Position numbers and translations under genes: made by a program. DNA of 64,000 nt, taken from IMG/VR virus record IMGVR_UViG_3300012347_000364, positions 25,019-89,018 of that record. One strand, given 5' to 3'. Shown one piece after another: positions 46,236 to 60,406 of this stretch (position 1 is its first letter; every line of letters begins with the position of its first letter). A model generated the notes under the pieces. The model did not search any database, was not told where the DNA came from, and saw only the letters and a program-made list of their open reading frames with translations. Origin of the DNA: a virus (lineage: Duplodnaviria; Heunggongvirae; Uroviricota; Caudoviricetes).

Positions 46236-46741
46236 TAGTTCTCAAACCCCCAGCACCCATCGACGTAGGTAATAAATTCTCTATATTCCTTGCCGGCTCG
46301 ATTGAAATGGGTAAGGCAGAAGATTGGCAATATCGTATTTCAAAAACATTTGAAGACTATAGCGATAACTTAGTGTTACTCAACCCACGACGTGATGGTT
46401 GGGACTGGAACACGAAACAATCAATCAATAACACAACATTTAAAGGACAGGTGGATTGGGAGTTAGATGCTCTCGAAGCAGCTGACCTTATTATGTACTA
46501 CTTCGTACCTGGTACAATGAGTCCCATTTCATTACTAGAATTTGGATTATATGCCAACACAACGAAACACATCATAGTGTGCTGCCCAGAAGGATTCTGG
46601 CGCAAAGGAAACATCGACGTAGTGTGTGATAGATTCATTATCCCATTATTCGATGACTTAAACATGGTGGTAGAAGAATTGCATAATAAACTTCCACAAT
46701 GGATTCAAGCAAAACAGGTGTTGACATCGACCTCTAACTGA
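46232..46741 (+). CDS. nucleoside 2-deoxyribosyltransferase-like (NDT/SLOG Rossmann) protein
   Basis: FLAGSIEMG N-terminal Rossmann strand; SLLEFGLYANTTKHII matches the NDT-family motif (..FEIGYAxALGKPI). Confidence 0.45.
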   Translation: MIVLKPPAPIDVGNKFSIFLAGSIEMGKAEDWQYRISKTFEDYSDNLVLLNPRRDGWDWNTKQSINNTTFKGQVDWELDALEAADLIMYYFVPGTMSPISLLEFGLYANTTKHIIVCCPEGFWRKGNIDVVCDRFIIPLFDDLNMVVEELHNKLPQWIQAKQVLTSTSN

Positions 46742-46749
46742 TGTATAAT
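46721..46749 (+). promoter_or_regulatory. perfect-consensus sigma70 promoter TTGACA-17-TATAAT
   Basis: Within the 3' end of the upstream gene; TATAAT 46744-46749; 55 nt upstream of the NAMPT ATG (AAGGAG RBS). Confidence 0.6.
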
Positions 46750-46803: not shown

Positions 46804-48204
46804 ATGCGTTTAGCAAAAAACATTATCCTGAATACTGACAGCTACAAAGTGTCAATGTTCAAACAGTATCCTGCTGGTACTACTGGTGTATACAGCTACA
46901 TTGAGTCTCGTGGTGGTCGCTACGATAAGACTGTAATGTTTGGGCTGCAGGCATTCATTAAAGAATACTTGCTTACCCCAATCAACCAAATGGACATTGA
47001 GATTGCAGACGAGATTCTGACAGCTCACGGTGAACCGTTTAACCGCGAAGGTTGGCAGTATATTGTAGACAAATACAACGGCTATCTTCCTGTCGTTATC
47101 CGTGCCGTTCCTGAAGGTACTGTGGTTCCTGTTAGCAACGTACTTGCTACTATTGAAAATACTGATCCAGAATGTTTCTGGTTGACAACTTGGCTTGAGA
47201 CTGCATTGCTTCGTGCTGTATGGTATGGTACGACTGTAGCTACTCAAAGCTGGAGTATTAAGCAAGTGATTGCTGACTATTTGGAGAAAACTGGTGATCC
47301 CACTTCTATTGATTTTAAGTTGCACGATTTCGGTGCTCGAGGCGTATCTTCTATGGAGAGTGCTGGCATTGGCGGGGCAGCTCACCTTGTCAACTTTATG
47401 GGATCGGATACTATTAGCGGTGTATTGTTTGCTCGTGAGTACTATAACGCTGGGATCGCTGGCTTTAGCATTCCTGCCGCAGAGCACAGCACTATCACTT
47501 CTTGGGGTCGTGACAACGAAGTAAAAGCATATGAAAACATGCTCACTCAGTTCGCGAAGCCTGGTGCTATTCTCGCTGTCGTTTCTGATTCTTATGATAT
47601 CTACAATGCTGTCCGTAACTTGTGGGGCACCGAGCTCCGTGATCGAGTTATTGCAAGTGGCGCAACTGTGGTTATTCGTCCTGATAGCGGGGATCCAGTC
47701 AGCGTTAATAAACAGCTGATTGAAATCTTAGGAGAGAAATTTGGTTACACAACAAACGCCAAAGGATTCAAAGTCCTCAACAACGTTCGCCTCATCCAGG
47801 GCGACGGAGTTAATGAGCTTAGCATTCGTAGTATTCTTGGGGCTTTTATGGCCATGGGTTGGTCTGCTGATAATATTGCGTTTGGTATGGGTGGCGCATT
47901 GTTACAACAGATTGATCGTGACACCCAACGATTCGCAATGAAGTGTTCTGCTGCTCTTATCAATGGAGATTGGGTCGATGTTCAAAAAGATCCGGTCACT
48001 GATAGTGGCAAGCGCTCGAAAGCAGGTCGTGTCTCTCTGTGGACTAATAGTGGTGGTGAATTCGCTTCTAGCGTATCTGCTCCTACTGGCTGGTCTGACA
48101 AAGGGATTGGTGGTTGGACTAACGCGCTGGACGAAGTCTACCGCGATGGTAAACTGGTCAAAGAATATACCTTCGATGAAGTACGAGCCAATACTCGCAA
48201 GTAA
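46804..48204 (+). CDS. nadV: nicotinamide phosphoribosyltransferase (NAMPT)
   Basis: NTDSYKVSMFKQYP; GWQYIVDKYNGYLPVVIRAVPEGTVVP; TIENTDPECFWLTTWLETAL; KLHDFGARGVSSMESAGIGGAAHLVNFMGSDT. Near-collinear with human/KVP40 NAMPT. Confidence 0.85.
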   Translation: MRLAKNIILNTDSYKVSMFKQYPAGTTGVYSYIESRGGRYDKTVMFGLQAFIKEYLLTPINQMDIEIADEILTAHGEPFNREGWQYIVDKYNGYLPVVIRAVPEGTVVPVSNVLATIENTDPECFWLTTWLETALLRAVWYGTTVATQSWSIKQVIADYLEKTGDPTSIDFKLHDFGARGVSSMESAGIGGAAHLVNFMGSDTISGVLFAREYYNAGIAGFSIPAAEHSTITSWGRDNEVKAYENMLTQFAKPGAILAVVSDSYDIYNAVRNLWGTELRDRVIASGATVVIRPDSGDPVSVNKQLIEILGEKFGYTTNAKGFKVLNNVRLIQGDGVNELSIRSILGAFMAMGWSADNIAFGMGGALLQQIDRDTQRFAMKCSAALINGDWVDVQKDPVTDSGKRSKAGRVSLWTNSGGEFASSVSAPTGWSDKGIGGWTNALDEVYRDGKLVKEYTFDEVRANTRK

Positions 48205-48222
48205 TAGCTACTAGCTAGCACG

Positions 48223-48253
48223 AAAGGCCACCGTTGTGTGGCCTTTCCTTTTT
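48223..48253 (+). terminator. rho-independent terminator AAAGGCCAC-cgttgt-GTGGCCTTT plus TCCTTTTT
   Basis: 9-bp stem, 6-nt loop, T-run; 19 nt after the NAMPT stop. Confidence 0.6.
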
Positions 48254-49985: not shown

Positions 49986-50240
49986 ATGACAATACCATAC
50001 ATTCCTATTAAAATTGATCCAGCGTTGCCGATAGATGCCTTTGCAATGTACTTGGAATTTAGTATTCTTTGGCATAAAGATATCCGCGATAATTCGTTCA
50101 ACGATTTCGATCGTCGATGGAAGCAAGGCCAAATAGATCTGCTTCAAAGTATGGTTGATGAGATTGACGGTATTCAAAAACCATCAGCAATCGAAATTGC
50201 ATTTAGTATAGCAGAAGAGATGAAAGACGGCGATGTCTAA
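49986..50240 (+). CDS. hypothetical protein (84 aa)
   Basis: Tiled ORF. Confidence 0.4.
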   Translation: MTIPYIPIKIDPALPIDAFAMYLEFSILWHKDIRDNSFNDFDRRWKQGQIDLLQSMVDEIDGIQKPSAIEIAFSIAEEMKDGDV

Positions 50241-50445
50241 GTTTGTTTTAATCAAGTACTCTGCCCCTGGTTGGGAGCAAGAGTACTCAACCGAAGAAGA
50301 CTTGCGCAAAGCTTTGTATAATCACATCTGTGGAATGTGTCGTGAGGGTGAGGAAGATTTCAGCGATCCGGTTTATGAGCATTCTGAAATTGACCATTTG
50401 CTGAGCACTGCATGCGGTTGTGAATTTGGAGTAGAATTAGAATGA
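50233..50445 (+). CDS. hypothetical protein (70 aa) with CxxC...C.C
   Basis: 8-nt overlap with the upstream gene. Confidence 0.35.
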   Translation: MSKFVLIKYSAPGWEQEYSTEEDLRKALYNHICGMCREGEEDFSDPVYEHSEIDHLLSTACGCEFGVELE

Positions 50446-50645
50446 TTATCTATTCAGCAGAGTATAATGATTGCATTTACGAATCTGCATTCGGCACAAT
50501 ATCCCTTCATAGAACATATGAAGGTGCATGTCAGACGATTCGGCGCGATGAGCGAAAGAAATTAAATCAATGGAAGAAGGCAGGACACGATACGATTCCT
50601 GATTATGAGCAGTGGCGTGTAAGAGAAATTGAATTGTTGGATTAA
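50442..50645 (+). CDS. hypothetical protein (67 aa)
   Basis: 4-nt overlap with the upstream gene. Confidence 0.35.
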   Translation: MIIYSAEYNDCIYESAFGTISLHRTYEGACQTIRRDERKKLNQWKKAGHDTIPDYEQWRVREIELLD

Positions 50646-51170
50646 ATGAAACCCCTAACCGATCACTTGAGAGACAGACATTTAGATGTAGTGCTCCACC
50701 ATCCTGTATTGGATGAAGTGGAACGTGTCGTCACGTTCTATTTGTGGAACCTTAGTGGTCAGTTGGTTGGCTTCCAACAATATAGACCAGAAGGCGAGAA
50801 GAAGCCGAACAACAATCCAAAACTCGGCAAGTACTACACATACAAAAAGCAGCCTACACTTGCTGTATGGGGCGTAGAAACGCTTGACCTTTCACCTAAC
50901 GTAATCTTCCTAACAGAAGGTGTGTTCGATGCTGCTAGGCTGACCAGTAGAGGTTATAGTGCACTTGCTGTACTAACTAACAACCCGACTATGGACCTTC
51001 GTAACTGGTTGACTTGCCTCAATAGAAAGGTCGTGGCAGTTTGTGATAATGATGCGGCTGGAAAGAAATTAGCCAAGTTTGGTGATGTGGCTGTTTTCAC
51101 AGAAGAAAAAGATCTCGGTGACGCTGATGAACAGTGGGTAACTGACCTGTTGACGACGTATGCACAATGA
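50646..51170 (+). CDS. Toprim-domain protein (174 aa)
   Basis: FLTEGVFDAARL (Toprim Glu) and AVCDNDAAGKK (DxD) motifs. Confidence 0.5.
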   Translation: MKPLTDHLRDRHLDVVLHHPVLDEVERVVTFYLWNLSGQLVGFQQYRPEGEKKPNNNPKLGKYYTYKKQPTLAVWGVETLDLSPNVIFLTEGVFDAARLTSRGYSALAVLTNNPTMDLRNWLTCLNRKVVAVCDNDAAGKKLAKFGDVAVFTEEKDLGDADEQWVTDLLTTYAQ

Positions 51171-51178
51171 TGTATAAT
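51150..51178 (+). promoter_or_regulatory. sigma70-type promoter TTGACG-17-TATAAT
   Basis: -35 at 51150-51155 inside the 3' end of the Toprim gene; -10 at 51173-51178. Confidence 0.5.
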
Positions 51179-51209
51179 AGGGTTATTGTGATTAACGGGA
51201 GTCGTTATT

Positions 51210-51446
51210 ATGAACCGAGATGGATACAACACTGCTGAAGAAGCAATCCAAGCTGGCATCGATGCCGGTGGTGTAGACGAGTTTGAGGGCATGAATTGCA
51301 ACGACTACACATTCGATGATGAGACGTCTGAATGTGCTGGTTGGGACGGCGTCGATCGCCGCTGTGATTGCGGCAACCGTCGTGTTAGCTGGGAGACCGG
51401 CCAATACGACAACGGTAAATTCTATGCTTATGGTGTTGCATACTGA
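51210..51446 (+). CDS. hypothetical Cys/Asp-rich protein (78 aa)
   Basis: Tiled ORF. Confidence 0.4.
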   Translation: MNRDGYNTAEEAIQAGIDAGGVDEFEGMNCNDYTFDDETSECAGWDGVDRRCDCGNRRVSWETGQYDNGKFYAYGVAY

Positions 51447-51456
51447 GGGTTGATAG

Positions 51457-51795
51457 ATGACTCTTTCTAGTTTGATTGCACGCCAAGACAATAAGTGCTA
51501 CTACTGTAGCTGTGAAATGAACCAGACCAAGAAGTCTCCTCAACAAGCGACTACTGAGCACTTGATTGATAAGTGGTCTAGTCCGAAGCACCATAAGATT
51601 GAATGTTCTTCTAATCTAGTCGCTGCTTGCTACCAATGTAATAACAGTCGAGGTGCTATCCGCAACCGGATAGCCCGTTCTTATTACAAAGGACAAGCTG
51701 CTATTAAGGGAATGAAGCTCGCTGTAGCGTCGACATCGAGTCGACAATTATATTCGTTATTTGGTCCAGTACCACAACACCTGTTTAATGTTTAA
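51457..51795 (+). CDS. HNH endonuclease
   Basis: CYYCSCEM...TTEHLIDKW...NLVAACYQCNNSRG (CxxC...H...N...CxxC HNH motif). Confidence 0.6.
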   Translation: MTLSSLIARQDNKCYYCSCEMNQTKKSPQQATTEHLIDKWSSPKHHKIECSSNLVAACYQCNNSRGAIRNRIARSYYKGQAAIKGMKLAVASTSSRQLYSLFGPVPQHLFNV

Positions 51796-51800
51796 GGAAA

Positions 51801-52820
51801 TTGAAAATGCGTAAACTCGCTACTATCCGTAAGATTGATCAACTGCTTCCTATTGAAGGTGCAGATGCGATCGAATGTGCTATTGTTGGTGGTTGGAAAG
51901 TTGTTGCACAAAAAGGTCTATACAAAGAAGGTGATCTTGCTGTGTATTTTGAGATTGACTCGTGGATTCCTACTGAGCTGGCTCCATTCCTGTCTAAAGG
52001 CAAAGAGCCTCGTGAGTTTGAAGGTGTTAAGGGTGAACGTCTGAAGACTATCAAGCTACGTGGTCAGTTGTCTCAAGGTTTGCTAATGCCTCTGGCTGAG
52101 ATCGATAAATTCTTCACCACAAAACCACATTGGTCTGAAGATGAAGATTTGACTGAAATCTTGAACATCAAGAAGTGGGAAAAGCCAATCAATGCGCAGC
52201 TGGCTGGCGTATGTCGTGGTAACTTCCCGTCTCTGATTCCGAAGACTGATCAAGAACGTGCTCAAAACCTGAAGAAGGAAATTGCTGCAGCTCGAGGTCT
52301 TGAATTCGAAGTGACGGAAAAGCTAGAAGGTTCTTCTATGACCTGCTACTTGATCAACGATGAGTTTGGTGTTTGCTCTCGTAACCTGGATTTGAAGGAG
52401 ACAGAAGGCAACGCATTCTGGACAATTGCTCGTCGTCTGGGTATTGAAGAAAAGATGCGTGCACTTGGTGCAATGGGTGGCCTGGCTATCCAAGGTGAGT
52501 TGATCGGTCCTGGCATCCAAGGTAACATCTACAAGTTGAATGATACACAGTTCCGTGTGTTTGATGTATATGCCGTCCAGGGTGGCGAATACCTCACTCC
52601 CGATGCCCGCCGCGTATTGATTGATGGTATGGGTCTCGACCATGTGCCTGTTATCGCTACGCGATTTGTGTTGGAGCATGGTGTCGAACAATTGTTGGCA
52701 ATGGCTGAATATAAGTCTGAGCTTGCTAATGTCGAACGCGAAGGCATTGTGTTTAAACAAGTCGATGGCGGCATGACGTTCAAGGCTATTTCTAACAAAT
52801 ATTTGCTAGGTGAAAAGTAA
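51801..52820 (+). CDS. ATP-dependent RNA ligase (Rnl2/DRB0094-like nucleotidyltransferase) with N-terminal tRNA-binding OB (Myf/Trbp111-like) domain
   Basis: N-terminal LPIEGADAIECAIVGGWKVV (cf. hP.AD.L.V..VDVG); motif I EKLEGSS, III FRVFDVY, IV EREGIVFK (cf. T4 Rnl2 EGYVLK), V KAISNKY. Confidence 0.55.
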   Translation: MKMRKLATIRKIDQLLPIEGADAIECAIVGGWKVVAQKGLYKEGDLAVYFEIDSWIPTELAPFLSKGKEPREFEGVKGERLKTIKLRGQLSQGLLMPLAEIDKFFTTKPHWSEDEDLTEILNIKKWEKPINAQLAGVCRGNFPSLIPKTDQERAQNLKKEIAAARGLEFEVTEKLEGSSMTCYLINDEFGVCSRNLDLKETEGNAFWTIARRLGIEEKMRALGAMGGLAIQGELIGPGIQGNIYKLNDTQFRVFDVYAVQGGEYLTPDARRVLIDGMGLDHVPVIATRFVLEHGVEQLLAMAEYKSELANVEREGIVFKQVDGGMTFKAISNKYLLGEK

Positions 52821-53047
52821 TGAACCAATTCGATATTGATAGCAAGCGCTTGACGTTCGGAAAGTATAGAGGGCGTACTCCGGAAGAGATTGCAGAGTAT
52901 GACCCTTCATATATCGTGTGGATGTACGATACAATCGAGTTCAAGCATTGTACGAAAGATCTACGCGATATGTGCGAGATGGATGTGCGCGAGAGTGAAG
53001 ATGAATACTACTCTGATTTGCAGGGTGAGAATTGTGAGATGTGGTAA
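52820..53047 (+). CDS. hypothetical protein (75 aa)
   Basis: TAATG overlap. Confidence 0.35.
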   Translation: MNQFDIDSKRLTFGKYRGRTPEEIAEYDPSYIVWMYDTIEFKHCTKDLRDMCEMDVRESEDEYYSDLQGENCEMW

Positions 53048-53334
53048 TGAAACCAATGCAAGTAATCTACAAACTCACTAACACCACAACAGGTGAGTTC
53101 TACATTGGGCGCGCAAAATGTGCTCATGCTCGGATGTTAGCACACAGAGCTCGGAGCCGTCATGGTGCCCACGATCATCTTCCGCTGTACGCTAATATTA
53201 AAAAGTATGGCGAGCACACATTCATGTACCAGTTAGTAGAGTCTAAGCTGAGCTGGGAAGATGCTCTGGTACGTGAGCGACATTGGGTTCAGACACTAAA
53301 ACCGCAGTTGAATAGGATATTGATTAATGGCTAG
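53041..53334 (+). CDS. stand-alone GIY-YIG nuclease domain protein (97 aa)
   Basis: VIYKLTNTTTGEFYIGRA ... R..H ... Y...E..W (GIY-YIG core). Confidence 0.55.
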   Translation: MVMKPMQVIYKLTNTTTGEFYIGRAKCAHARMLAHRARSRHGAHDHLPLYANIKKYGEHTFMYQLVESKLSWEDALVRERHWVQTLKPQLNRILING

Positions 53335-53566
53335 AATTAGAGAAGGTTGTGATTGTGGATGTAACGATCCAGTTGCGCGCAATCCGAAAGACATGCTAGT
53401 ATTCCTGGCACGCCGTTTTGAACATGCAGGCGTTGCCGAAAGTGTGGCTAGCATTTATGCTTATGATATTAAATTGATTTTGAAAGAACATTATGGAATC
53501 GACCTCGACAGTGAAGCGCGGATTCAAGCGCAAGACAATCGAACAAACAATCCGCAACAAGATTAA
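53327..53566 (+). CDS. hypothetical protein (79 aa)
   Basis: ATG ORF; overlaps the next gene by 74 nt, so one of the two boundaries is uncertain. Confidence 0.3.
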   Translation: MARIREGCDCGCNDPVARNPKDMLVFLARRFEHAGVAESVASIYAYDIKLILKEHYGIDLDSEARIQAQDNRTNNPQQD

Positions 53567-54488
53567 GGGTTGGCTTGCGTCGATTGACGATATTGAGTTG
53601 CGCGATGAAGTCAGGAAGCATTACATCGTAACAGGTGGTGCAATCACCTCTATGTTGTTAGGTGACTTGCCGAACGACTACGATGTGTATTTGGATGATA
53701 CCGCTGTCGCTGCTCGCTTAGCAAACTATTACATCAGCCGTTTGCCTACGCCCGACAACGAATGTACTAAGACGCCTATCGTTACTGTGCCGCCAGAAGG
53801 CGGCCGCGTAGAGATCAAAGTCCAATCTGCTGGCGTTGCTGGTGAGGATATGGATCAGACGAAGTATGAATATTTCGAGCAGTATGCAGATGGTGCATCA
53901 AAGTCAGCATCATATTTGGATGCAATGGCTTCTCGTGACACTGGCAAATACAAAGCACTAGCAATTACTACGAACGCTATTACGCTGTCTGATAAGATCC
54001 AGATTGTACTGCGGTTTGTTGGTCCTGCAAATGAGATTCATAAGAACTATGATTTCGTTCACACCACAAATTACTTCACAGAAGACACTGGTGTTGTATT
54101 CAACGAAGCAGCACTCGAATCTATCCTTGCACGTGAGTTGAAGTATGTTGGTTCGTTGTATCCAATCTGTTCGATCTTCCGTATTAAGAAGTTCATCAAA
54201 CGTGGATGGACAATCACGGCTGGCGAAATGTTGAAAATCGCATACGACATTAGCAAGCTCGACCTTGACGATCCTACTGTATTACAGGAACAGCTGACTG
54301 GCGTCGATGCTGCATACTTCCGTCAAATTCTTGATTTAATTAGGCAAGAAGGTAAGCCAATCGACCGCACGTATTTGTTTGAGTTGGTTAACCGTATCTT
54401 TGACGAAGATTGGGAAGTAGAACAAGCGATCGTCGAAGCAAACACTTCCGTAGAAGTATCAACATCGCTAAGTGATTTATTCAAATAA
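53493..54488 (+). CDS. nucleotidyltransferase with CCA-adding-enzyme/poly(A)-polymerase head domain (331 aa)
   Basis: HYIVTGGAITSMLLGDLPNDYDVYL matches the class II CCA/PAP head motif (vYLVGGaVRDlLLGr...DiDi). Confidence 0.5.
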   Translation: MESTSTVKRGFKRKTIEQTIRNKIKGWLASIDDIELRDEVRKHYIVTGGAITSMLLGDLPNDYDVYLDDTAVAARLANYYISRLPTPDNECTKTPIVTVPPEGGRVEIKVQSAGVAGEDMDQTKYEYFEQYADGASKSASYLDAMASRDTGKYKALAITTNAITLSDKIQIVLRFVGPANEIHKNYDFVHTTNYFTEDTGVVFNEAALESILARELKYVGSLYPICSIFRIKKFIKRGWTITAGEMLKIAYDISKLDLDDPTVLQEQLTGVDAAYFRQILDLIRQEGKPIDRTYLFELVNRIFDEDWEVEQAIVEANTSVEVSTSLSDLFK

Positions 54489-54988
54489 TGAAAAAGATTT
54501 ATGTAGACATGGACGGAGTGCTTACCGATTTCGGTAAACGCTACAAGGAACTGTTTGGACGCACCCCTCGAGAAGTTATCCGCGAACAGAAGGAAAAGGG
54601 CGAGTATGGCAGACTGTGGAAGCAGTTCTGTGAAGACCGACATTTTGCCAACCTCGACAAGTATCCTGGTTGTGATGACTTGCTAGAAGCGTTGAGCAAA
54701 CTCAAAAATGTACAGATTGCTATTTTGACATCTTCTGGTGGATTTGATTACCATGGTATGGTACAATTGCAAAAGATCGAATGGTTGTGTAGTAATGGTA
54801 TTCCGTACCCTGCTATCATTGTTCCTGGTCGTCGGTTTAAAGCAGGGTACGCATCCAACGATAGCTTTATGATTGACGATACGCCAGACGTTATTGACAA
54901 CTTTCGGGCCAAGGGCGGCCATGGTGTTATCCATAAAGCTGATGCTAAGTGGGATACCTTTTATCAACTGGAGCAATTTCTAAAATGA
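54488..54988 (+). CDS. HAD-superfamily 5'(3')-deoxyribonucleotidase-like phosphatase
   Basis: N-terminal MKKIYVDMDGVLTDF (DxDG motif I); the 166-aa size fits the NT5C-type family. Confidence 0.55.
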   Translation: MKKIYVDMDGVLTDFGKRYKELFGRTPREVIREQKEKGEYGRLWKQFCEDRHFANLDKYPGCDDLLEALSKLKNVQIAILTSSGGFDYHGMVQLQKIEWLCSNGIPYPAIIVPGRRFKAGYASNDSFMIDDTPDVIDNFRAKGGHGVIHKADAKWDTFYQLEQFLK

Positions 54989-55218
54989 GCACATTAAAAT
55001 TATACACAGTCAAAGTATCATTTGATTTCGTGGTCGCTGCAAACGATGTACATGATGCATATCAGGTCGGCGCTGCTGAGGCAGCAGAAGCGTTCCGCGA
55101 CCTATCGGTTCGTGATATGGATATGGATGTAACGCCTGGAGCTACTGCATACAAGTGGGACGATGAATGCATCCCATATGGTGGTGATGGTAACACTCGT
55201 ACATCGGAGTACAAATAA
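54985..55218 (+). CDS. hypothetical acidic protein (77 aa)
   Basis: ATGA-coupled ATG 54985 (the track start is 54949). Confidence 0.35.
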   Translation: MSTLKLYTVKVSFDFVVAANDVHDAYQVGAAEAAEAFRDLSVRDMDMDVTPGATAYKWDDECIPYGGDGNTRTSEYK

Positions 55219-55463
55219 TGCGAATTATTGTTATCATTATGCTAGCGTTAGCATCTCTTGTGTTTGCTTCACCCTTCGCTCTACTGGTAATCGATGTGTG
55301 GTCGTGGCTGGTACTTGGGTCTGGCGTTACGCCCGTTGATTGGACTTTCATTGGGTCATATGACCACGTCGATCATGTTGGTAAGCCAATATTGGCGATG
55401 TTGTTTTTGGCACCAGCCTTTGTGACTGGCGCTGGTGCACTTGTACTGGTTGGTGACCTATGA
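55218..55463 (+). CDS. small membrane protein (81 aa; 2-3 TM)
   Basis: TAATG overlap; hydrophobic. Confidence 0.4.
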   Translation: MRIIVIIMLALASLVFASPFALLVIDVWSWLVLGSGVTPVDWTFIGSYDHVDHVGKPILAMLFLAPAFVTGAGALVLVGDL

Positions 55464-55840
55464 AAGTAATCATTGCAGGTGGCCGCGACATCGATAACTA
55501 CGACGCACTATTGAAAGCAATCGCCAACAGCAATTTCGAAATTACCGAAGTTGTATCTGGTGGAGCTCTTGGTGCTGATGCTCTTGGCGAGCGATATGCC
55601 AAAGAGAACAACATTAAACTGACAGTGTTTCCAGCATTGTGGAATATCCATGGCCGTGCTGCTGGTCCTATTCGCAATCGTGAGATGGCTGAATATGGTA
55701 ATGCGTTAATTGCATTATGGGATGGTAGCTCGCGTGGAACGAAGAATATGATTGATGAAGCGCGCAAGAACGACCTTGAAGTATACATTTACCTAACAAA
55801 GGATAAAGATGACGGACGAACAATCGATTCTCATTTATGA
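55460..55840 (+). CDS. SLOG-superfamily / DUF2493-like Rossmann protein (DprA/LOG-like)
   Basis: VVSGGALGADALGERYAKENNI ... HGRAAGPIRNREM ... ALWDGSSRGTK, the conserved pattern of the phage/plasmid DUF2493 (YspA-like SLOG) family. Confidence 0.5.
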   Translation: MKVIIAGGRDIDNYDALLKAIANSNFEITEVVSGGALGADALGERYAKENNIKLTVFPALWNIHGRAAGPIRNREMAEYGNALIALWDGSSRGTKNMIDEARKNDLEVYIYLTKDKDDGRTIDSHL

Positions 55841-55991
55841 GAAGATGCTAGAGATGTGGCCGCAATTGCCCAGCGCTGAGCATGAGCCAAAGCAGTTTGA
55901 ATTCTATATGAAGATGTTTCAATACTGTCATCCAGAAGAAGTAAACAAAATCTTAGGAAGACCAAATGAAGTTCCGCAAGAAGCCAGTTGA
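55809..55991 (+). CDS. hypothetical protein (60 aa)
   Basis: ATG ORF overlapping the upstream gene by 32 nt. Confidence 0.3.
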   Translation: MTDEQSILIYEKMLEMWPQLPSAEHEPKQFEFYMKMFQYCHPEEVNKILGRPNEVPQEAS

Positions 55992-56253
55992 GATTGAAGC
56001 AGTTCAGTTTGTATATTCTGATGAAGGGATTGCTGCTCTAAAACAATTTGCTGGCAATGCCATCGGTACAATCTCCAAAGCTCGACACATCAACGCGAAG
56101 GGTGAAGCAGAGATTGGTACACTGGAAGACGGTATGCATCTAACCGTCAAACATATTGCTACTGAGGGCGATTGGATCATTAAAGGAGTACAAGGTGAAT
56201 TCTACGCCTGCAAACCAGACATCTTTGAAGCAACATATGAACGTGTGCTATAA
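55966..56253 (+). CDS. hypothetical protein (95 aa)
   Basis: Tiled ORF. Confidence 0.4.
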   Translation: MKFRKKPVEIEAVQFVYSDEGIAALKQFAGNAIGTISKARHINAKGEAEIGTLEDGMHLTVKHIATEGDWIIKGVQGEFYACKPDIFEATYERVL

Positions 56254-56479
56254 AGGCTGGAGCGATCTAGACGCTAATCGCTCCGGTCGATGTTGCTGTA
56301 ATTGTGTTAACCAGGTTGCAATATACAGACATCCGTGGAACACTATGGTTGGTGGACGAATGAAAGGTCCCGTCACTCAAATTGCTGGGTGGGGATGTAA
56401 AGCAATGGAAAATGGTGGTCTCATCTTTATGGAAGATGAACACAGTATGTGCGAAGTGCACGAATGGAAAAAAGCATGA
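56237..56479 (+). CDS. hypothetical Cys-rich protein (80 aa)
   Basis: ATG 56237; RCCCNCVN..C..C cluster. Confidence 0.35.
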   Translation: MNVCYKGWSDLDANRSGRCCCNCVNQVAIYRHPWNTMVGGRMKGPVTQIAGWGCKAMENGGLIFMEDEHSMCEVHEWKKA

Positions 56480-56688
56480 GTTGGTCTAGTGGATCAGAAG
56501 TAGCCCGTGAAATCATCGTTGTCGTTAAAAAGAACGTAAAGGACGATAAAGTCCGTACAAAGATATACGAGAAGTTGATTGATATCTTTGAAGATCAGGA
56601 CTGTGATACAATGTATGAATGCATTGGTGTTGACAAAGTTTACGATCGATTGTATAATGAATTATATCCTAACGACGATGAAGAGTAA
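56476..56688 (+). CDS. hypothetical protein (70 aa)
   Basis: ATGA-coupled ATG 56476 (the track start is GTG 56449). Confidence 0.35.
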   Translation: MSWSSGSEVAREIIVVVKKNVKDDKVRTKIYEKLIDIFEDQDCDTMYECIGVDKVYDRLYNELYPNDDEE

Positions 56689-56690
56689 AA

Positions 56691-57083
56691 ATGGGAATGA
56701 TTTTAGTGAGAGGTTTACCGGGATCTGGTAAGTCGACTTTGGCAAAGACGTTGATTGGTTTCTACATGCACGTAGAGACTGATAAGTTTTGGGGTCCAGA
56801 ATACAATTTCGATATGAGCCGCCTCGGCGAAGCACATGCGTGGTGCTTGTCCGAAACTCGTCGTCTATTAGCTGCTGGCTTCAGTCCAGTAGTATCCAAC
56901 ACTTTCACTACAAAGAAAGAGCTCGCGCCATACTTTGCATTGGCCAAAGAGTTTGATGTTGTTCCACAAGTCGTGTTGTGTCAGGGCAACTTCAAGAACG
57001 TCCACAACGTTCCTGAAGAAGTCTTATTCAAGATGAACGCACGTTTTGAATACAACATCGATGAATTGTGGGCCACGCTTTGA
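56691..57083 (+). CDS. P-loop kinase, polynucleotide-kinase-like (kinase domain only)
   Basis: MGMILVRGLPGSGKSTLAKTL parallels the T4 Pnk N-terminus [22 protein letters not shown]; 130 aa, no phosphatase domain. Confidence 0.5.
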   Translation: MGMILVRGLPGSGKSTLAKTLIGFYMHVETDKFWGPEYNFDMSRLGEAHAWCLSETRRLLAAGFSPVVSNTFTTKKELAPYFALAKEFDVVPQVVLCQGNFKNVHNVPEEVLFKMNARFEYNIDELWATL

Positions 57084-57604: not shown

Positions 57605-57970
57605 ATGAAACCATATCTCCATGGAAGAATCCACGCAAAAAAGTATGGGGGAGTGCCAGAAGACTATGCAGACATCGACGACTTCATCGACAGCTCCAAA
57701 GCAGCCGTACCTGACATCCGACACAGGGCAATATTACACTCTGCGTTCGGGTGCTTCATCGTCGAAAGAACTTTTGGTCGTACACGCATCAACTCGGACG
57801 GGAAAGAGTATTCTCCAAGAGATGTGGCAGAAGACCACATCCAGCAAGATTTAGGATTCATTCCTACAATGGAGCAGTATCTCAACAACATGACTATCCA
57901 GCCGTGGATGTCAGGAACAGAGAAGAAGAACAACCGTGCCAAGCAAAAACACATCCCCCTGGTGGATTAA
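57605..57970 (+). CDS. hypothetical protein (121 aa)
   Basis: ATG 2 nt after the upstream stop. Confidence 0.4.
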   Translation: MKPYLHGRIHAKKYGGVPEDYADIDDFIDSSKAAVPDIRHRAILHSAFGCFIVERTFGRTRINSDGKEYSPRDVAEDHIQQDLGFIPTMEQYLNNMTIQPWMSGTEKKNNRAKQKHIPLVD

Positions 57971-58698: not shown

Positions 58699-59205
58699 AT
58701 GAGCGATTTGATGAATGAATTTGATGCATTGTTGGATGAGCAACGTGCTATTAAGGCGACTTTTCAAAGTAAAGCCCAAGAGTTGTTTAAGAAGACGACT
58801 GCCGAGATATTCGAGAAAGTACCACAACTGAATGCTATTCGTTGGACACAGTATACACCATACTTTAATGACGGTGATACATGCGAGTTTAGTGTTGGCG
58901 ATCCCTACTTCACAAACGCTGAAGGTGATGAGCTGGAAGATCTAACATCGTATGGTGAGTATGACGGTGAAGGAGATCATATTTGGTGCGCTGAAACATA
59001 CACACTTCGTAGTGACTCATCATACAGCCAAAGCACACGCGATTTAGCAGCCCTCACACACCCACAGTTGATTGCTTTGGAAAAGTTTGCTGTGTTGATT
59101 CAATCTGAGGAGATGCAAGACGTCATGTTGGCAATGTTTGATGATCATGTTTGTGTAACTGCAACACGTGATGGCTTCGATGTAGACGAATACTCGCATG
59201 ACTAA
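58699..59205 (+). CDS. hypothetical acidic protein (168 aa)
   Basis: Tiled ORF. Confidence 0.4.
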   Translation: MSDLMNEFDALLDEQRAIKATFQSKAQELFKKTTAEIFEKVPQLNAIRWTQYTPYFNDGDTCEFSVGDPYFTNAEGDELEDLTSYGEYDGEGDHIWCAETYTLRSDSSYSQSTRDLAALTHPQLIALEKFAVLIQSEEMQDVMLAMFDDHVCVTATRDGFDVDEYSHD

Positions 59206-59887
59206 AATGTTTACGTGGTCCGAGTATACGCACTGGCACCTCAAACTTCGCTGGCCATCTGATGGTTGGGATGAGACACGTGTAGTATTCAATCTTGGAC
59301 TCTGGCACTTGTTTGTACAGATTCCGTTGTGGAAGACTACGCCATGGGCAGAATGGGGGCACGAGGCCCCACAATATGGTATTGCCTACCATAACGATAC
59401 GTTCTGGATCTATCATGGTGCAGACAAGTGGTGGACGTTTGATATGCCATGGCAGTGGACTATTGTAAGGCACGATCTCCTACTTCCGAACGGTGATCTA
59501 TACCACCGAAACAAATACCCACAGTTCGGACGAGGTCGTGGCGTTAAAACGCGCAGCTGGTATGATGTATTTGAAAGCGACCCAGGTGATGTCCAAATTA
59601 AAGTTGCCGACTACGTTGCCCTAAAGCATAAAGTAAGCGATAATATAATCCAAGAAGCAGTGATTCGCCTCTGTGGTGAAGAACGCGAATGGCGTTGGAA
59701 ATGGTTTACTTGGTTTCCGTTCTTTGGTATGATACAACGAACTATTAATTGTGAGTCTCCTATCGAACTTGGCTCTAAAGCTGGTTCATGGAAGGGCGGC
59801 ATGATGGGTTGGGGTACTGACTGGAAGCATGATGAGACTATGGAGCAAGCATTCTGGCGTTGGTATAAAACATGGGACGGAACATAA
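59198..59887 (+). CDS. hypothetical Trp-rich protein (229 aa)
   Basis: Unusually Trp-rich (about 10% W). Confidence 0.4.
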   Translation: MTKMFTWSEYTHWHLKLRWPSDGWDETRVVFNLGLWHLFVQIPLWKTTPWAEWGHEAPQYGIAYHNDTFWIYHGADKWWTFDMPWQWTIVRHDLLLPNGDLYHRNKYPQFGRGRGVKTRSWYDVFESDPGDVQIKVADYVALKHKVSDNIIQEAVIRLCGEEREWRWKWFTWFPFFGMIQRTINCESPIELGSKAGSWKGGMMGWGTDWKHDETMEQAFWRWYKTWDGT

Positions 59888-59896
59888 GGTGATGTT

Positions 59897-60406
59897 GTGA
59901 CAGCATATGAAATGATTTCTGAGTTCTACGGCTTGCGTCAGGCCAAGCGTAGTGGTGTTCCGCTAATCAATCACATCGATGAGGGTATTAAGATCCTCCG
60001 TTGGTTGGGTGCTAGCGTGGATACTATGGAAGCATTTTGCCTACATCCGATGTTGCAAAGCGATGAAGAGCTCAACGCAAACTGGAAAGATGTTGCTATT
60101 GAGTTTGCTGATCAAGGCGAAGTGTTGATGTACGCTATGGAGTATCGCAACGTCGCTAACGCATTCCTTAGCGATAAAGTAATGACTATGGTTACCGATA
60201 ACATCCGTTTAAGTCCGGTAATGCCCGTTAATTTGATGCTAATTGCCGATAAAATCCAGAATCGTAAAGATTTTGAATTGTATCATAAAAGCACACATCC
60301 ACGTAGTACACAGCTAGATGTATACTTCAAGATGTGGTTGAAGCGACTCAATGTCGATGAAATCGCATACCAAGACTATGTTCAACGTCTAAAGGAAAGT
60401 ACATGA
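59897..60406 (+). CDS. hypothetical protein (169 aa; GTG start)
   Basis: Long ORF with a GTG start. Confidence 0.35.
   Translation: MTAYEMISEFYGLRQAKRSGVPLINHIDEGIKILRWLGASVDTMEAFCLHPMLQSDEELNANWKDVAIEFADQGEVLMYAMEYRNVANAFLSDKVMTMVTDNIRLSPVMPVNLMLIADKIQNRKDFELYHKSTHPRSTQLDVYFKMWLKRLNVDEIAYQDYVQRLKEST

What the first reader, a model, noticed from the sequence alone, without database searches (positions are those of the whole stretch)
50646..57083. Candidate RNA/tRNA repair and maturation module: tRNA-binding RNA ligase, CCA-enzyme-like NTase, phosphatase, kinase and SLOG protein
Seen in sequence: within 6.4 kb lie
- an Rnl2/DRB0094-like RNA ligase fused to a Trbp111/Myf-like tRNA-binding OB domain (51801-52820);
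- a nucleotidyltransferase with the class II CCA-adding-enzyme head motif (53493-54488);
- a HAD DxDG phosphatase (54488-54988);
- a PNK-like P-loop kinase (56691-57083);
- a SLOG/DUF2493 protein (55460-55840);
- Toprim, HNH and GIY-YIG proteins interspersed among them.

Established knowledge: T4 Pnk (kinase plus HAD phosphatase) and Rnl1 heal and seal tRNAs cut by the host anticodon nuclease PrrC. CCA-adding enzymes repair tRNA 3' ends.

Inference: the phage encodes split kinase and phosphatase proteins, a tRNA-targeted ligase and a possible 3'-end repair enzyme. That is a fuller toolkit than T4's and could counter several anticodon- or acceptor-end-nuclease defences (PrrC, RloC, VapC-like, PARIS/retron effectors). 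The ligase-OB fusion and the short CCA-like enzyme look undescribed in T4-like phages.
Basis: partly seen in the sequence, partly recalled or inferred. Interest (0 to 1): 0.7.

Follow-up and report, generated by a model that had tools for sequence, protein, structure and literature searches.

The report
Phage RNA-repair genes with Gad2-like enzyme
A large freshwater phage carries a nick-sealing RNA ligase, a polynucleotide-kinase-like kinase and a nucleotide-adding enzyme; that enzyme is not a standard CCA enzyme but a relative of Gad2, an anti-Gabija protein whose mechanism is unknown, and across many phages it tends to sit beside ligase genes.

Summary
Three of them form a credible nucleic-acid end-repair set.

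- **Ligase (51801-52820):** a textbook Rnl5 (DraRnl/NgrRnl) nick-sealing RNA ligase. Its OB domain is the family's catalytic N-domain, not an added tRNA-binding module.
- **Kinase (56691-57083):** folds like polynucleotide kinases. Its family sits directly next to phage RNA ligases and metallophosphoesterases.
- **NTase (53493-54488):** has a class II CCA/poly(A)-polymerase-type head and neck. It lacks the RRD and EDxxR motifs and the body/tail domains. It belongs to Pfam PF26128 "Gad2" and is homologous to the validated anti-Gabija Gad2 of SPbetaL7. In 18 of 32 lineages a polynucleotide ligase lies within 10 kb, and in 7 an RNA ligase lies within 1 kb.

Two parts are not supported as RNA-repair components.

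- **HAD protein:** an NT5C-type 5'(3')-deoxyribonucleotidase, not a Pnk-type phosphatase.
- **SLOG protein:** a YAcAr family member that fits the neighbouring NAD+ genes.

No 3'-end-healing phosphoesterase was found in the window. Gene order in this region is very plastic, and most Rnl5 genes have no such NTase nearby. Phage RNA-repair kits are already described. The Gad2-ligase link appears to be new.

The parts
46804..48204 (+). NAMPT (nicotinamide phosphoribosyltransferase). It is context for the region, not a repair gene, but it is a frequent neighbour of Rnl5 genes in other phages.
   Evidence: PF04095 at 6e-63 plus NAMPT_N. A 12/12 promoter lies at 46721-46749 and a terminator at 48222-48247. 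NAMPT lies within 6 kb of Rnl5 in 16/80 loci.
50646..51170 (+). Stand-alone Toprim-domain protein, primase-like. It travels with the ligase and kinase in close relatives; its role is unclear.
   Evidence: phrog_849 DNA primase at 2e-42, matching only profile positions 149-335 of 435. Pfam Toprim_2/Toprim_4 hits are weak. Relatives L012, L014, L015 and L057 have it at the same length.
51150..51178 (+). Sigma-70-like promoter (11/12 match) ahead of the 51210 ORF / HNH / Rnl5 / NTase / HAD gene string.
   Evidence: This is a consensus match only.
51457..51795 (+). Free-standing HNH homing-type endonuclease upstream of the ligase.
   Evidence: PF01844 weak; several HNH PHROGs score down to 5e-8.
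51801..52820 (+). [quoted passage not shown]
   Evidence: PF21189 plus PF09414. TIGR02306 scores above its cutoff. phmmer against NgrRnl 5cot gives E = 1e-89 over the full length. NgrRnl R4, D53, K121, R149, K170, E227, E312 and K326 are conserved as R4, D53, K125, R153, K174, E233, E314 and K328; D172 is replaced by E176 (mapped using the residues named).
52820..53047 (+). 75-aa ORF with an ExoX-like C-terminal motif, overlapping the ligase stop codon.
   Evidence: PF20600 at 6.9e-11. It is absent from L013, where the ligase and NTase abut.
53041..53566 (+). Short GIY-YIG endonuclease ORF (53041-53334) followed by an out-of-frame 79-aa ORF (53327-53566). This is probably a decayed homing endonuclease inserted between the ligase and the NTase.
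   Evidence: PF01541 at 6e-6; phrog_314 at 8.5e-12. The insertion is inferred by comparison with L013, L035 and L036.
53493..54488 (+). Gad2-family (PF26128) Pol-beta nucleotidyltransferase with a class II CCA/PAP-like head and neck. The alternative GTG start at 53511 is the one used by the database protein P0001.
54488..54988 (+). HAD phosphatase of the NT5C 5'(3')-deoxyribonucleotidase family. It overlaps the NTase stop by 1 nt. It is probably a nucleotide-pool enzyme; a role in 3'-end healing is unproven.
   Evidence: PF06941 at 1.1e-11; phrog_2643 at 9e-26 against PNK phrog_415 at 2e-7. Best PDB matches are mitochondrial and cytosolic dNT. Phage homologs are annotated as 5' nucleotidase.
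55460..55840 (+). SLOG protein of the YAcAr (DUF2493) family. It is more likely part of the NAD+/ADP-ribose theme than of RNA repair.
   Evidence: PF10686 at 6.5e-13. The literature places YAcAr with NAD+-using domains (PMC7824862).
55966..56253 (+). 95-aa protein of unknown function (phrog_419) that recurs 1-3 kb from the NTase in unrelated lineages.
   Evidence: phrog_419 at 9e-29. Homologs at 39-40% identity lie near the NTase in L020-L023.
56630..56658 (+). Perfect-consensus sigma-70 promoter (TTGACA-17-TATAAT), 33 bp upstream of the kinase start.
56691..57083 (+). 130-aa stand-alone polynucleotide-kinase-like P-loop kinase.
   Evidence: AAA_33 at 1e-11. AF2 pLDDT is 91. The top 18 Foldseek PDB hits are all polynucleotide kinases: mammalian PNKP, C. 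thermocellum Pnkp (TM 0.8), T4 Pnk and Mucorales kinases. The family lies next to Rnl1/Rnl5, metallophosphoesterases and true CCA enzymes.
57605..57970 (+). DUF6915 protein. It is a recurrent neighbour of the NTase in relatives; function unknown.
   Evidence: PF21866 at 4.6e-39. Found in L001, L014-L016, L024 and L035.
59198..59887 (+). Acb3-family CBASS inhibitor. It marks the region as an anti-defence island.
   Evidence: PF25187 at 6e-25, above the cutoff.

Best explanation
The stretch is part of a hypervariable auxiliary and counter-defence island (about 42-60 kb of the window) in a large aquatic phage. The phage probably belongs to the T4 superfamily. Three genes in the stretch form a nucleic-acid break-repair set.

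- **Rnl5 ligase.** It seals 3'-OH/5'-phosphate nicks in duplexes whose 3'-OH strand is RNA.
- **Small PNK-like kinase.** It would supply 5'-phosphates on 5'-OH ends.
- **Gad2-family nucleotidyltransferase.** It has a CCA/poly(A)-polymerase-type catalytic head and neck, but no templating motifs and no tRNA-gripping body or tail. I infer that it adds one or a few nucleotides to a damaged 3'-OH end so the end can be resealed. That is the role shown biochemically for the unrelated ligase-associated NTase RlaP.

The likely purpose is to undo damage to tRNA or other structured RNA caused by host abortive-infection nucleases. Toprim nucleases of the OLD family fit especially well, because they leave ligatable nicks in duplex stems.

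The other genes are co-resident rather than part of the pathway. The NT5C-type HAD is probably a nucleotide-pool enzyme. The YAcAr SLOG fits the neighbouring NAMPT/NadR-like NAD+ genes. The Toprim protein is primase-like. The HNH and GIY-YIG genes are selfish endonucleases, and the GIY-YIG cassette has split a ligase-NTase pair that is adjacent in relatives.

What is shown: family memberships, folds, conserved catalytic residues and gene-neighbourhood statistics. What is inferred: substrates, the order of reactions and the defence systems countered.
For: **Ligase**
- Full-length match to NgrRnl (E = 1e-89) with the catalytic residues conserved.
- The TIGR02306 equivalog scores above its cutoff.

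**Kinase**
- PNK fold.
- In 19 of the 36 family loci that hold an RNA ligase, the ligase is within 800 bp.
- The commonest nearest neighbours are Metallophos (11, plus 3 Metallophos_2), RNA_lig_T4_1 (9), Rnl5 (3) and the PolyA_pol head (3).

**NTase**
- Class II fold, with an invariant GG...DxD motif.
- Homologous to validated Gad2.
- An RNA ligase lies within 1 kb in 7 independent lineages. These involve two ligase families (Rnl5, Rnl1) and both gene orders.
- RNA_ligase is the joint-top Pfam family among the 119 nearest neighbours.
- Rhizobium phage RHph_I1_18 has the gene string CCA-NT, Thg1, Rnl1, PNK, NTase, tRNA-Lys, tRNA-Gln.
- L004 has PTH2, NTase, TROVE and Rnl5.
- In L036 the NTase-Rnl5 pair sits inside a tRNA array.
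- L055 has Rnl1, a metallophosphoesterase, the kinase and a 200-aa mini Gad2-like NTase.

**Precedent and context**
- RlaP adds 1-2 NMP to damaged RNA 3' ends (PMC12776372).
- OLD-family Toprim nucleases leave 3'-OH/5'-P ends, and single stem nicks are resealed by RNA ligases (PMC12445682).
- The island also holds Acb3 and NAMPT.
Against: - Seen from the ligase side, the pairing is uncommon. Only 5 of 51 Rnl5 lineages have a Gad2-like NTase within 6 kb.
- 14 of 32 NTase lineages show no ligase nearby with my probes.
- 8 lineages have only an ATP-dependent DNA ligase nearby. This may simply reflect residence in a replication module, or it may point to a DNA substrate.
- Gene order differs even in the closest relative, L012, where the ligase is 8.7 kb from the NTase.
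- The kinase has its own perfect promoter and lies 3.9 kb from the ligase.
- The window has no 3'-phosphatase or cyclic phosphodiesterase of the kind that normally accompanies this kinase family.
- The kinase lacks the lid arginines of T4 and C. thermocellum Pnk.
- Rnl5's physiological substrate is unknown and may be DNA repair (PMC5397189).
- Validated Gad2 works in SPbeta phages with no adjacent ligase, and it has an extra C-terminal ~200 aa that is absent here.
- No activity was measured.
Confidence: 0.55

Rival explanations
1. One reading: a complete T4-style heal-and-seal kit plus CCA repair. The kinase and the HAD phosphatase together replace Pnk, the OB domain targets the ligase to tRNA, and the NTase rebuilds tRNA CCA ends.
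For: - PNK-like fold of the kinase.
- The HAD has the DxDxT-type motif and directly follows the NTase.
- The NTase has a class II head and neck.
- An NT5C homolog recurs near a ligase-kinase-NTase cluster in L055 and L062.
- tRNA genes lie within 10 kb of the NTase in 11 of 33 loci checked.
Against: - The OB domain is the catalytic N-domain of Rnl5, and Rnl5 seals duplex nicks.
- The NTase has no PolyA_pol hit, no RRD or EDxxR motif and no body/tail domains.
- RHph_I1_18 carries a true CCA enzyme as well as this NTase.
- The HAD is NT5C-type, with no HAD_PNKP hit, and lies near only 2 of 80 kinase loci.
- The usual phosphoesterase partner of this kinase family is a metallophosphoesterase.
Confidence: 0.12
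2. A DNA-side pathway. The NTase extends or ribo-tails DNA 3' ends at nicks or breaks, and Rnl5 (which needs a ribonucleotide 3' end) or a DNA ligase seals them. This is the logic of bacterial LigD POL plus LIG. It would protect phage DNA from nicking or cleaving defences such as Gabija.
For: - The validated family member Gad2 counters Gabija, whose GajA cleaves DNA.
- ATP-dependent DNA ligases lie within 10 kb of the NTase in 11 of 32 lineages, and within about 1.1 kb in L041, L044, L047 and L049.
- DraRnl contributes to recovery from ionising radiation, and its authors leave open a DNA-repair role for Rnl5.
- The 3'-ribonucleotide preference of LigD is from my own knowledge (Zhu and Shuman) and was not checked here.
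Against: - The nearest structural relatives of the NTase all act on RNA 3' ends.
- Several neighbourhoods are clearly RNA/tRNA-themed: Rnl1, Thg1, CCA-NT, TROVE, PTH2 and tRNA arrays.
- A DNA ligase nearby may simply reflect location in a replication module.
Confidence: 0.18
3. There is no functional module. These are independent accessory genes collected in a recombination-prone island. The NTase is a self-sufficient anti-defence enzyme, for example one that modifies a defence protein or makes or consumes a nucleotide signal. The ligase and kinase act separately.
For: - Extreme plasticity of gene order among relatives.
- Most Rnl5 genes lack the NTase.
- Gad2 in SPbetaL7 acts without a neighbouring ligase.
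- The island mixes unrelated anti-defence genes such as Acb3 and NAMPT.
- The kinase has a separate promoter.
Against: - NTase-ligase abutment (gaps of 8-24 bp) recurs in distant lineages (40-50% NTase identity), with two different ligase families and in both orders.
- Ligase distances are far from uniformly spread (P = 9e-6).
Confidence: 0.2

Closest known systems
Rnl5 nick-sealing RNA ligases (Deinococcus DraRnl, Naegleria NgrRnl; PDB 5cot)
   Same: Same two-domain architecture, about 50% identity to NgrRnl over the full length, and conserved catalytic residues in both the OB and NTase domains. Homologs in phages have been noted since 2015.
   Different: Asp172 of motif I is Glu here; D172A in NgrRnl retains activity. 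The neighbour here is a 75-aa ExoX-like_C ORF rather than the 228-aa DEDDh-like DR_B0095. The physiological substrate is unknown in every case.
Gad2 (Gabija anti-defence 2) of Bacillus phage SPbetaL7; Pfam PF26128
   Same: Homologous NTase domain with the same GGAITS...D-x-D head and the F/YP-I-x-S-x-x-R-x-x-K-F neck motif. The family is almost entirely restricted to phages.
   Different: Only about 23% identity. The window protein lacks Gad2's C-terminal ~200 aa and has an insert of about 65 aa in the head. Anti-Gabija activity is untested here. Gad2 in SPbeta has no neighbouring ligase. Gad2's mechanism is still unknown.
Class II tRNA nucleotidyltransferases and poly(A) polymerase I (CCA-, CC- and A-adding enzymes; PF01743)
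   Different: No Pfam PolyA_pol hit, no RRD (motif B), no EDxxR (motif D) and no body or tail domains. Beyond the head motif there is no detectable sequence-profile similarity to E. coli Cca or PcnB.
[quoted passage not shown]
   Same: A Pol-beta NTase whose genes sit next to RNA ligases and polynucleotide kinases in phages and bacteria. RlaP adds 1-2 NMP to damaged RNA 3' ends before ligation. This is the best functional analogy.
   Different: A different family: no PF10127 hit and a class II-like rather than RlaP-like structure. The analogy rests on genomic context only.
T4 Pnk/Rnl1 and bacterial Pnkp (kinase, metallophosphoesterase, ligase) heal-and-seal systems
   Same: The kinase shares the PNK fold and P-loop, and its family lies beside metallophosphoesterases and Rnl1/Rnl5 ligases, like a split Pnkp.
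   Different: Here the kinase is a 130-aa stand-alone protein without the lid arginines. The window has no metallophosphoesterase or Pnk-type HAD. The ligase is Rnl5, not Rnl1 or Rnl4.
Phage RNA-repair gene sets surveyed in jumbo phages (Iyer et al. 2021, PMC7824862)
   Same: The same logic: ligases plus PNK plus phosphoesterases plus template-independent NTases (RlaP, CCA, Thg1) plus phage tRNAs, placed among counter-defence and NAD+ genes.
   Different: In the passages I read, that survey does not list a Gad2/PF26128-type NTase as a ligase partner.

Membership tests
Rnl5 RNA ligase (DraRnl/NgrRnl) | N-terminal OB domain fused to a C-terminal adenylyltransferase domain, with no C-terminal appendage | tested here: met
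   PF21189 covers residues 6-98 and PF09414 covers 168-328. The alignment to 5cot spans 2-336 against 3-335.
Rnl5 RNA ligase (DraRnl/NgrRnl) | Motif I lysine nucleophile and the metal/ATP-contacting residues (NgrRnl R4, D53, K121, R149, K170, D172, E227, E312, K326) | tested here: met
   Eight of nine are identical (R4, D53, K125, R153, K174, E233, E314, K328). D172 is replaced by E176. Mapped from the alignment using the residues named.
Rnl5 RNA ligase (DraRnl/NgrRnl) | Curated equivalog model TIGR02306 scoring above its cutoff | tested here: met
   191.1 bits against a cutoff of 151.15.
Rnl5 RNA ligase (DraRnl/NgrRnl) | Seals 3'-OH/5'-PO4 nicks only when the 3'-OH strand is RNA | not testable with these tools
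   Biochemical property.
Trbp111/Myf-type tRNA-binding OB domain | Match to the tRNA_bind family (PF01588) | tested here: not met
   The only OB hit is PF21189 PHA02142. No tRNA_bind hit at E <= 0.1.
Class II CCA-adding enzyme / poly(A) polymerase | Motif A head signature GG-x-VRD...D-x-D | tested here: met
   GGAITSMLLGDLPNDYD is present in 45/45 homologs. It is the only segment that aligns to E. coli Cca and PcnB.
Class II CCA-adding enzyme / poly(A) polymerase | Head plus neck fold | tested here: met
Class II CCA-adding enzyme / poly(A) polymerase | PolyA_pol head-domain HMM (PF01743) | tested here: not met
   No Pfam hit at E <= 0.1. A profile search of PDB sequences finds no CCA enzyme.
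Class II CCA-adding enzyme / poly(A) polymerase | Motif B RRD (ribose selection) and motif D EDxxR (base templating) | tested here: not met
   RRD occurs in 2/45 and [ED]DxxR in 4/45 homologs, and neither sits at a conserved position. TxNA is retained in 39/45.
Class II CCA-adding enzyme / poly(A) polymerase | Body and tail domains that hold the tRNA | tested here: not met
Gad2 (PF26128) | Match to the Pfam Gad2 model | tested here: met
   Precomputed PF26128 on P0001 (100% identical, 325 aa) and on all 120 listed homologs. The local Pfam copy returned nothing for this protein, presumably because it lacks that model.
Gad2 (PF26128) | Detectable homology to the experimentally validated Gad2 (SPbetaL7, WIT28108.1) | tested here: met
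   BLASTP gives 2e-8 plus 2e-4. hhalign gives 97.2% probability and E = 3e-11 over Gad2 residues 8-200.
Gad2 (PF26128) | Full-length architecture including the C-terminal ~200 aa of Gad2 | tested here: not met
   Nothing in the window protein aligns to Gad2 residues 200-400.
Gad2 (PF26128) | Inhibits Gabija defence | not testable with these tools
   Phenotype known only for SPbetaL7 Gad2 and a Brevibacillus homolog.
5'-OH polynucleotide kinase (T4 Pnk / Pnkp / PNKP kinase domain) | P-loop kinase fold closest to PNKs | tested here: met
   GLPGSGKST P-loop. The top 18 Foldseek hits are all PNKs, with TM up to 0.80 to C. thermocellum Pnkp.
5'-OH polynucleotide kinase (T4 Pnk / Pnkp / PNKP kinase domain) | General-base Asp after strand 2 and the lid arginines | tested here: inconclusive
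   E29 is invariant and D31 nearly invariant at the expected place (ETD). The lid region reads FGNIHNVP, with an invariant His and no Arg; R118 is nearly invariant further on. The T4 and C. thermocellum residues are from my own knowledge.
5'-OH polynucleotide kinase (T4 Pnk / Pnkp / PNKP kinase domain) | Genomic linkage to RNA ligase and an end-healing phosphoesterase | tested here: met
   Met for the family: a ligase lies within 8 kb in 36/80 loci and within 800 bp in 19, and Metallophos is the top neighbour. In this window the ligase is 3.9 kb away and no phosphoesterase was found.
Pnk-type HAD 3'-phosphatase | Best match to the PNK phosphatase family (HAD_PNKP / PNK3P) rather than another HAD family | tested here: not met
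   The best matches are NT5C PF06941 (1e-11) and phrog_2643 deoxyribonucleotidase (9e-26). There is no HAD_PNKP hit. PNK phrog_415 scores only 2e-7.
RlaP (PF10127) | Match to PF10127 | tested here: not met
   No hit. The resemblance is in genomic context only.
SLOG, YAcAr (DUF2493) | Match to PF10686 above its cutoff | tested here: met
   48.7 bits against a cutoff of 28.2.

The most novel reading that the evidence does not exclude
Gad2-family nucleotidyltransferases are ligase-coupled 3'-end-tailing enzymes, a second, class II-derived counterpart of RlaP. On this reading Gad2 defeats Gabija by repairing or remodelling nuclease-made ends, not by binding the defence complex. That would imply that the lethal lesion made by Gabija is a ligatable break in structured RNA (tRNA stems) or in DNA. 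OLD and PARIS, its ATPase-Toprim relatives, might make similar lesions. Phages would reverse such breaks with an NTase plus a nick-sealing ligase.
Probability: 0.15. Interest if true: 0.8.

Novelty: new variant of a known kind. Interest (0 to 1): 0.5.

Why it matters
Gad2 is a validated anti-defence enzyme, and a February 2026 review still lists its mechanism as unknown. This work shows three things about its family: the catalytic core is of the CCA/poly(A)-polymerase type, the family is essentially restricted to phages, and in many lineages its genes abut RNA ligases, polynucleotide kinases, DNA ligases and tRNA genes. Together these give a concrete, testable hypothesis: Gad2-family enzymes extend nucleic-acid 3' ends ahead of ligation.

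The results also suggest a physiological setting for Rnl5 ligases, whose natural substrates are unknown. They define a widespread 130-aa stand-alone PNK-like kinase family that behaves like the kinase module of a split Pnkp.

If the link is only positional, the region is an ordinary mix of accessory genes of already-described kinds.

Tried and rejected
- **Megablast of the region against phage records:** no match. The phage has no close cultured relative.
- **Sequence searches of the NTase against the PDB:** the single-sequence search and the profile search both gave only noise. Only fold comparison linked it to class II enzymes.
- **hhalign of the NTase family against E. coli Cca and PcnB:** only the 20-30 residue head motif aligned. 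I therefore rejected 'short CCA-adding enzyme'.
- **Local Pfam:** it did not reproduce the precomputed PF26128 hit. I replaced it with a direct comparison to SPbetaL7 Gad2.
- **Bacterial genome scan for the NTase:** one hit only, a phage-like MAG contig identical in length to an IMG/VR contig. There is no cellular context to exploit.
- **Rfam scan:** only the two tRNAs at 22.4 kb. No RNA element lies in the region.
- **Search of the window for a metallophosphoesterase:** motif and tblastn searches found nothing.
- **PDB sequence searches of the SLOG and the phrog_419 protein:** uninformative.
- **Obligate Rnl5-NTase pair:** considered and set aside, because only 5 of 51 Rnl5 lineages have the NTase nearby.
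- **NgrRnl structure paper:** I could not retrieve it to check whether its OB domain structurally resembles tRNA-binding OB folds.

Full report
**Observation.**
- The 174-aa protein at 50646 is Toprim-only. It matches just the central part of a phage primase profile.
- 51457-51795 is an HNH endonuclease and 53041-53334 a short GIY-YIG endonuclease.
- 51801-52820 is an RNA ligase with an N-terminal OB domain (PF21189 plus PF09414).
- 53493-54488 has no hit in the local Pfam copy but carries a GG...DxD head.
- 54488-54988 is a HAD protein, 55460-55840 a YAcAr/DUF2493 SLOG protein, and 56691-57083 an AAA_33 P-loop protein.

**The phage.** It has no close cultured relative. Related metagenomic contigs reach 235-340 kb. 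The window also holds ribonucleotide reductase, ThyX, a T4-type RNase H, a DNA ligase, DenV and two tRNAs. This fits a large T4-superfamily-like phage from water. The best ligase hits are phages of Synechococcus and Limnohabitans.

**The ligase.** It aligns end to end with Naegleria NgrRnl (E = 1e-89) and passes the DRB0094 equivalog model.
- The catalytic residues listed for NgrRnl in PMC7261155 are R4, D53 and K121 in the OB domain, and R149, K170, E227, E312 and K326 in the NTase domain. All are conserved here. D172 is replaced by Glu, a position where Ala is tolerated in NgrRnl.
- It is therefore a standard Rnl5 enzyme. Its OB domain is the family's signature N-domain, required for adenylylation and nick sealing. 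It is not an added tRNA-binding module, and no tRNA_bind hit was seen.
- Rnl5 enzymes seal 3'-OH/5'-phosphate nicks in duplexes whose 3'-OH strand is RNA. Their physiological substrates are unknown and may include DNA repair.
- Phage homologs were reported in 2015. I find the full-length protein in 339 phage records, so the claim that the fusion is undescribed does not hold.

**The NTase.** This gave the most informative result.
- Its 5,050 database relatives carry the precomputed Pfam family PF26128, named Gad2.
- I fetched the validated Gad2 gene of Bacillus phage SPbetaL7 and compared it directly. BLASTP gives 2e-8, with a second segment over the head motif. The family profile aligns to Gad2 residues 8-200 at 97% probability, E = 3e-11.
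- The window protein lacks Gad2's C-terminal 200 residues and has an insert of about 65 residues.
- Sequence-profile comparison to E. coli Cca and PcnB aligns only the head motif. The RRD and EDxxR motifs are absent. There is no room for body and tail domains.
- It should not be filed as a CCA-adding enzyme. Rhizobium phage RHph_I1_18, the closest cultured phage with this gene, encodes a genuine CCA enzyme three genes upstream of it.
- Gad2's mechanism was still listed as unknown in February 2026. I found no paper linking Gad2 to RNA ligases.

**Neighbourhoods of the NTase.** I collected 42 viral loci plus annotated phage records and grouped them into 32 lineages at 85% identity.
- An RNA ligase lies within 10 kb in 10 lineages. 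In 7 of those it is within 1 kb (P = 9e-6 against a uniform spread).
- The adjacency involves two ligase families and both gene orders:
  - Rnl5 then NTase in L013 and L035, with gaps of about 20 bp.
  - NTase then Rnl5 in L036/L037, inside a tRNA array.
  - Rnl1, a small ORF, NTase, PNK in L042.
  - CCA-NT, Thg1, Rnl1, PNK, NTase, tRNA-Lys, tRNA-Gln in RHph_I1_18.
  - PTH2, NTase, TROVE and Rnl5 in a 339-kb contig.
- Among the 119 nearest neighbouring proteins, RNA_ligase and DNA_ligase_A_M are the commonest Pfam families.
- ATP-dependent DNA ligases lie nearby in 11 lineages. Counting RNA and DNA ligases together, 18 of 32 lineages have a polynucleotide ligase within 10 kb.
- In the window itself the ligase and NTase are 0.7 kb apart. 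That gap holds an ExoX-like_C ORF, the short GIY-YIG gene and an overlapping ORF. It is absent in L013, so a mobile cassette has probably split the pair.
- The link is one-sided. Only 5 of 51 Rnl5 lineages have such an NTase within 6 kb, whereas NAMPT is near Rnl5 in 16 of 80 loci. Gene order differs even in the closest relative.

**The kinase.**
- The 130-aa protein models confidently (pLDDT 91). Its top 18 structural matches are all polynucleotide kinases: mammalian PNKP, C. thermocellum Pnkp at TM 0.8, T4 Pnk and Mucorales RNA kinases.
- In 80 viral loci of its family, 36 have an RNA ligase within 8 kb, and 19 of those within 800 bp (P = 2e-10).
- The commonest nearest neighbours are calcineurin-like phosphoesterases, Rnl1, Rnl5 and true PolyA_pol-head CCA enzymes. 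The family therefore behaves like the kinase module of a split Pnkp.
- L055 shows the full arrangement: Rnl1, a metallophosphoesterase, the kinase, a small ORF and a 200-aa mini Gad2-like NTase (hhalign 98.5%), followed further on by an NT5C homolog.
- The lid arginines of T4 and C. thermocellum Pnk are not evident.
- In the window the kinase has its own perfect sigma-70 promoter.

**HAD and SLOG.**
- The HAD is best matched by NT5C 5'(3')-deoxyribonucleotidases in Pfam, PHROGs and the PDB. Phage homologs are annotated as 5' nucleotidases.
- It lies near only 2 of 80 kinase loci and has no HAD_PNKP match. A 3'-end-healing role is possible but unsupported.
- I found no metallophosphoesterase in the window, so the healing step for 3'-phosphate or cyclic ends is unaccounted for.
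- The SLOG protein is a YAcAr member. The literature places that family with NAD+/ADP-ribose chemistry. This fits the NAMPT and NadR-like/Nudix genes upstream.
- With an Acb3-family CBASS inhibitor at 59198-59887, the wider region looks like a counter-defence island.

**Interpretation.** The best-supported reading is a ligase-centred end-repair set (Rnl5, PNK-like kinase, Gad2-family NTase) embedded in a plastic anti-defence island.
- By analogy with RlaP, I infer that the NTase restores or extends 3' ends before sealing. RlaP is an unrelated ligase-associated NTase that adds 1-2 nucleotides to damaged RNA ends.
- A recent finding makes a nick-sealing ligase a natural antidote to one class of nuclease. 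OLD-family Toprim nucleases cut duplex stems of tRNA and leave 3'-OH/5'-phosphate ends, and RNA ligases can reseal single nicks of that kind. Gabija's GajA, the target system of Gad2, belongs to the same class, although GajA is reported to cut DNA.
- Whether the NTase substrate is RNA or DNA cannot be decided here. The DNA-ligase neighbourhoods and the Gabija connection keep a DNA-end model alive.
- The HAD, SLOG, Toprim, HNH and GIY-YIG genes are best treated as co-residents.

**Novelty.** Phage RNA-repair kits with ligases, PNK, phosphoesterases and template-independent NTases are already described. Rnl5 and Gad2 are known families. What appears new is that Gad2-family enzymes have a class II CCA/PAP-type core and are recurrently coupled to polynucleotide ligases and kinases. 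I rate this a new variant of a known kind, of moderate interest. Its value is as a testable lead to the mechanism of Gad2 and to the function of Rnl5.

Noticed in passing
window 59198-59887 (+): Acb3-family CBASS inhibitor (PF25187, 6e-25, above cutoff). Homologs lie next to the YAcAr gene in relatives L001, L014 and L015.
   Followed up: partly
window 42973-43992 and 46804-48204 (+): A NadR-like cytidyltransferase/Nudix protein and NAMPT form an NAD+ salvage pair. NAMPT lies within 6 kb of Rnl5 in 16 of 80 viral Rnl5 loci, which is more often than the Gad2-like NTase does.
   Followed up: partly
window 46721-46749, 51150-51178, 56630-56658 (+); terminator 48222-48247: Two perfect 12/12 sigma-70 consensus promoters lie ahead of NAMPT and ahead of the kinase, and an 11/12 promoter lies ahead of the ligase gene string. 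A strong terminator follows NAMPT. This suggests host-polymerase (early) expression of these genes.
   Followed up: no
window 52820-53047 (+): A 75-aa ORF with an ExoX-like C-terminal motif overlaps the ligase stop codon. In Deinococcus the Rnl5 gene is co-operonic with a DEDDh-exonuclease-like protein, so this could be a remnant or a minimal version of that partnership.
   Followed up: no
window 53041-53566 (+): The GIY-YIG ORF is only 97 aa. It is followed by an out-of-frame 79-aa ORF that overlaps the NTase start. This is probably a decaying homing endonuclease. The whole 0.7-kb insert is absent from L013.
   Followed up: partly
window 50233-51170 (+): A 174-aa Toprim-only protein matches just the middle of phage primase profiles and keeps that length in relatives. 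A Cys-rich 70-aa ORF (50233-50445) lies just upstream. This could be a split primase or a stand-alone Toprim protein of another function.
   Followed up: no
window 59897-60406 (+): A weak HD_4 match in which the HD dyad reads HP. It is a possible degenerate phosphohydrolase directly after the Acb3 gene.
   Followed up: no
L055 5811-10868: A compact cluster: a PTP-like HCxxGxxRS protein, Rnl1, a 187-aa metallophosphoesterase, the kinase, a 94-aa hydrophobic ORF, a 200-aa mini Gad2-like NTase, and an NT5C homolog about 1 kb further on. It is the clearest 'complete kit' version of what the window holds in part.
   Followed up: partly
L036 538-8576 (and L037): The NTase-Rnl5 pair sits inside an array of 12 tRNA genes. 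The array includes a tRNA with a TCA anticodon (called SeC by ARAGORN) and one with a 4-base anticodon call.
   Followed up: no
L018 14751-15120: A phage-encoded tmRNA lies 4 kb from the NTase, followed by a six-tRNA cluster. Separately, an SmpB gene is a nearest neighbour of one kinase homolog.
   Followed up: no
L020 10001-12763 (and L021): Two divergent Gad2-like NTase paralogs (54% and 31% identity to the window protein) lie 1.2 kb apart, with a phrog_419 homolog downstream.
   Followed up: no
window 37929-40673 (-): A 914-aa minus-strand protein whose only phage matches are partial hits to tail-fibre-like or C1q-head proteins of Pelagibacter, Methylophilales and Limnohabitans phages. This is consistent with an aquatic host.
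   Followed up: no
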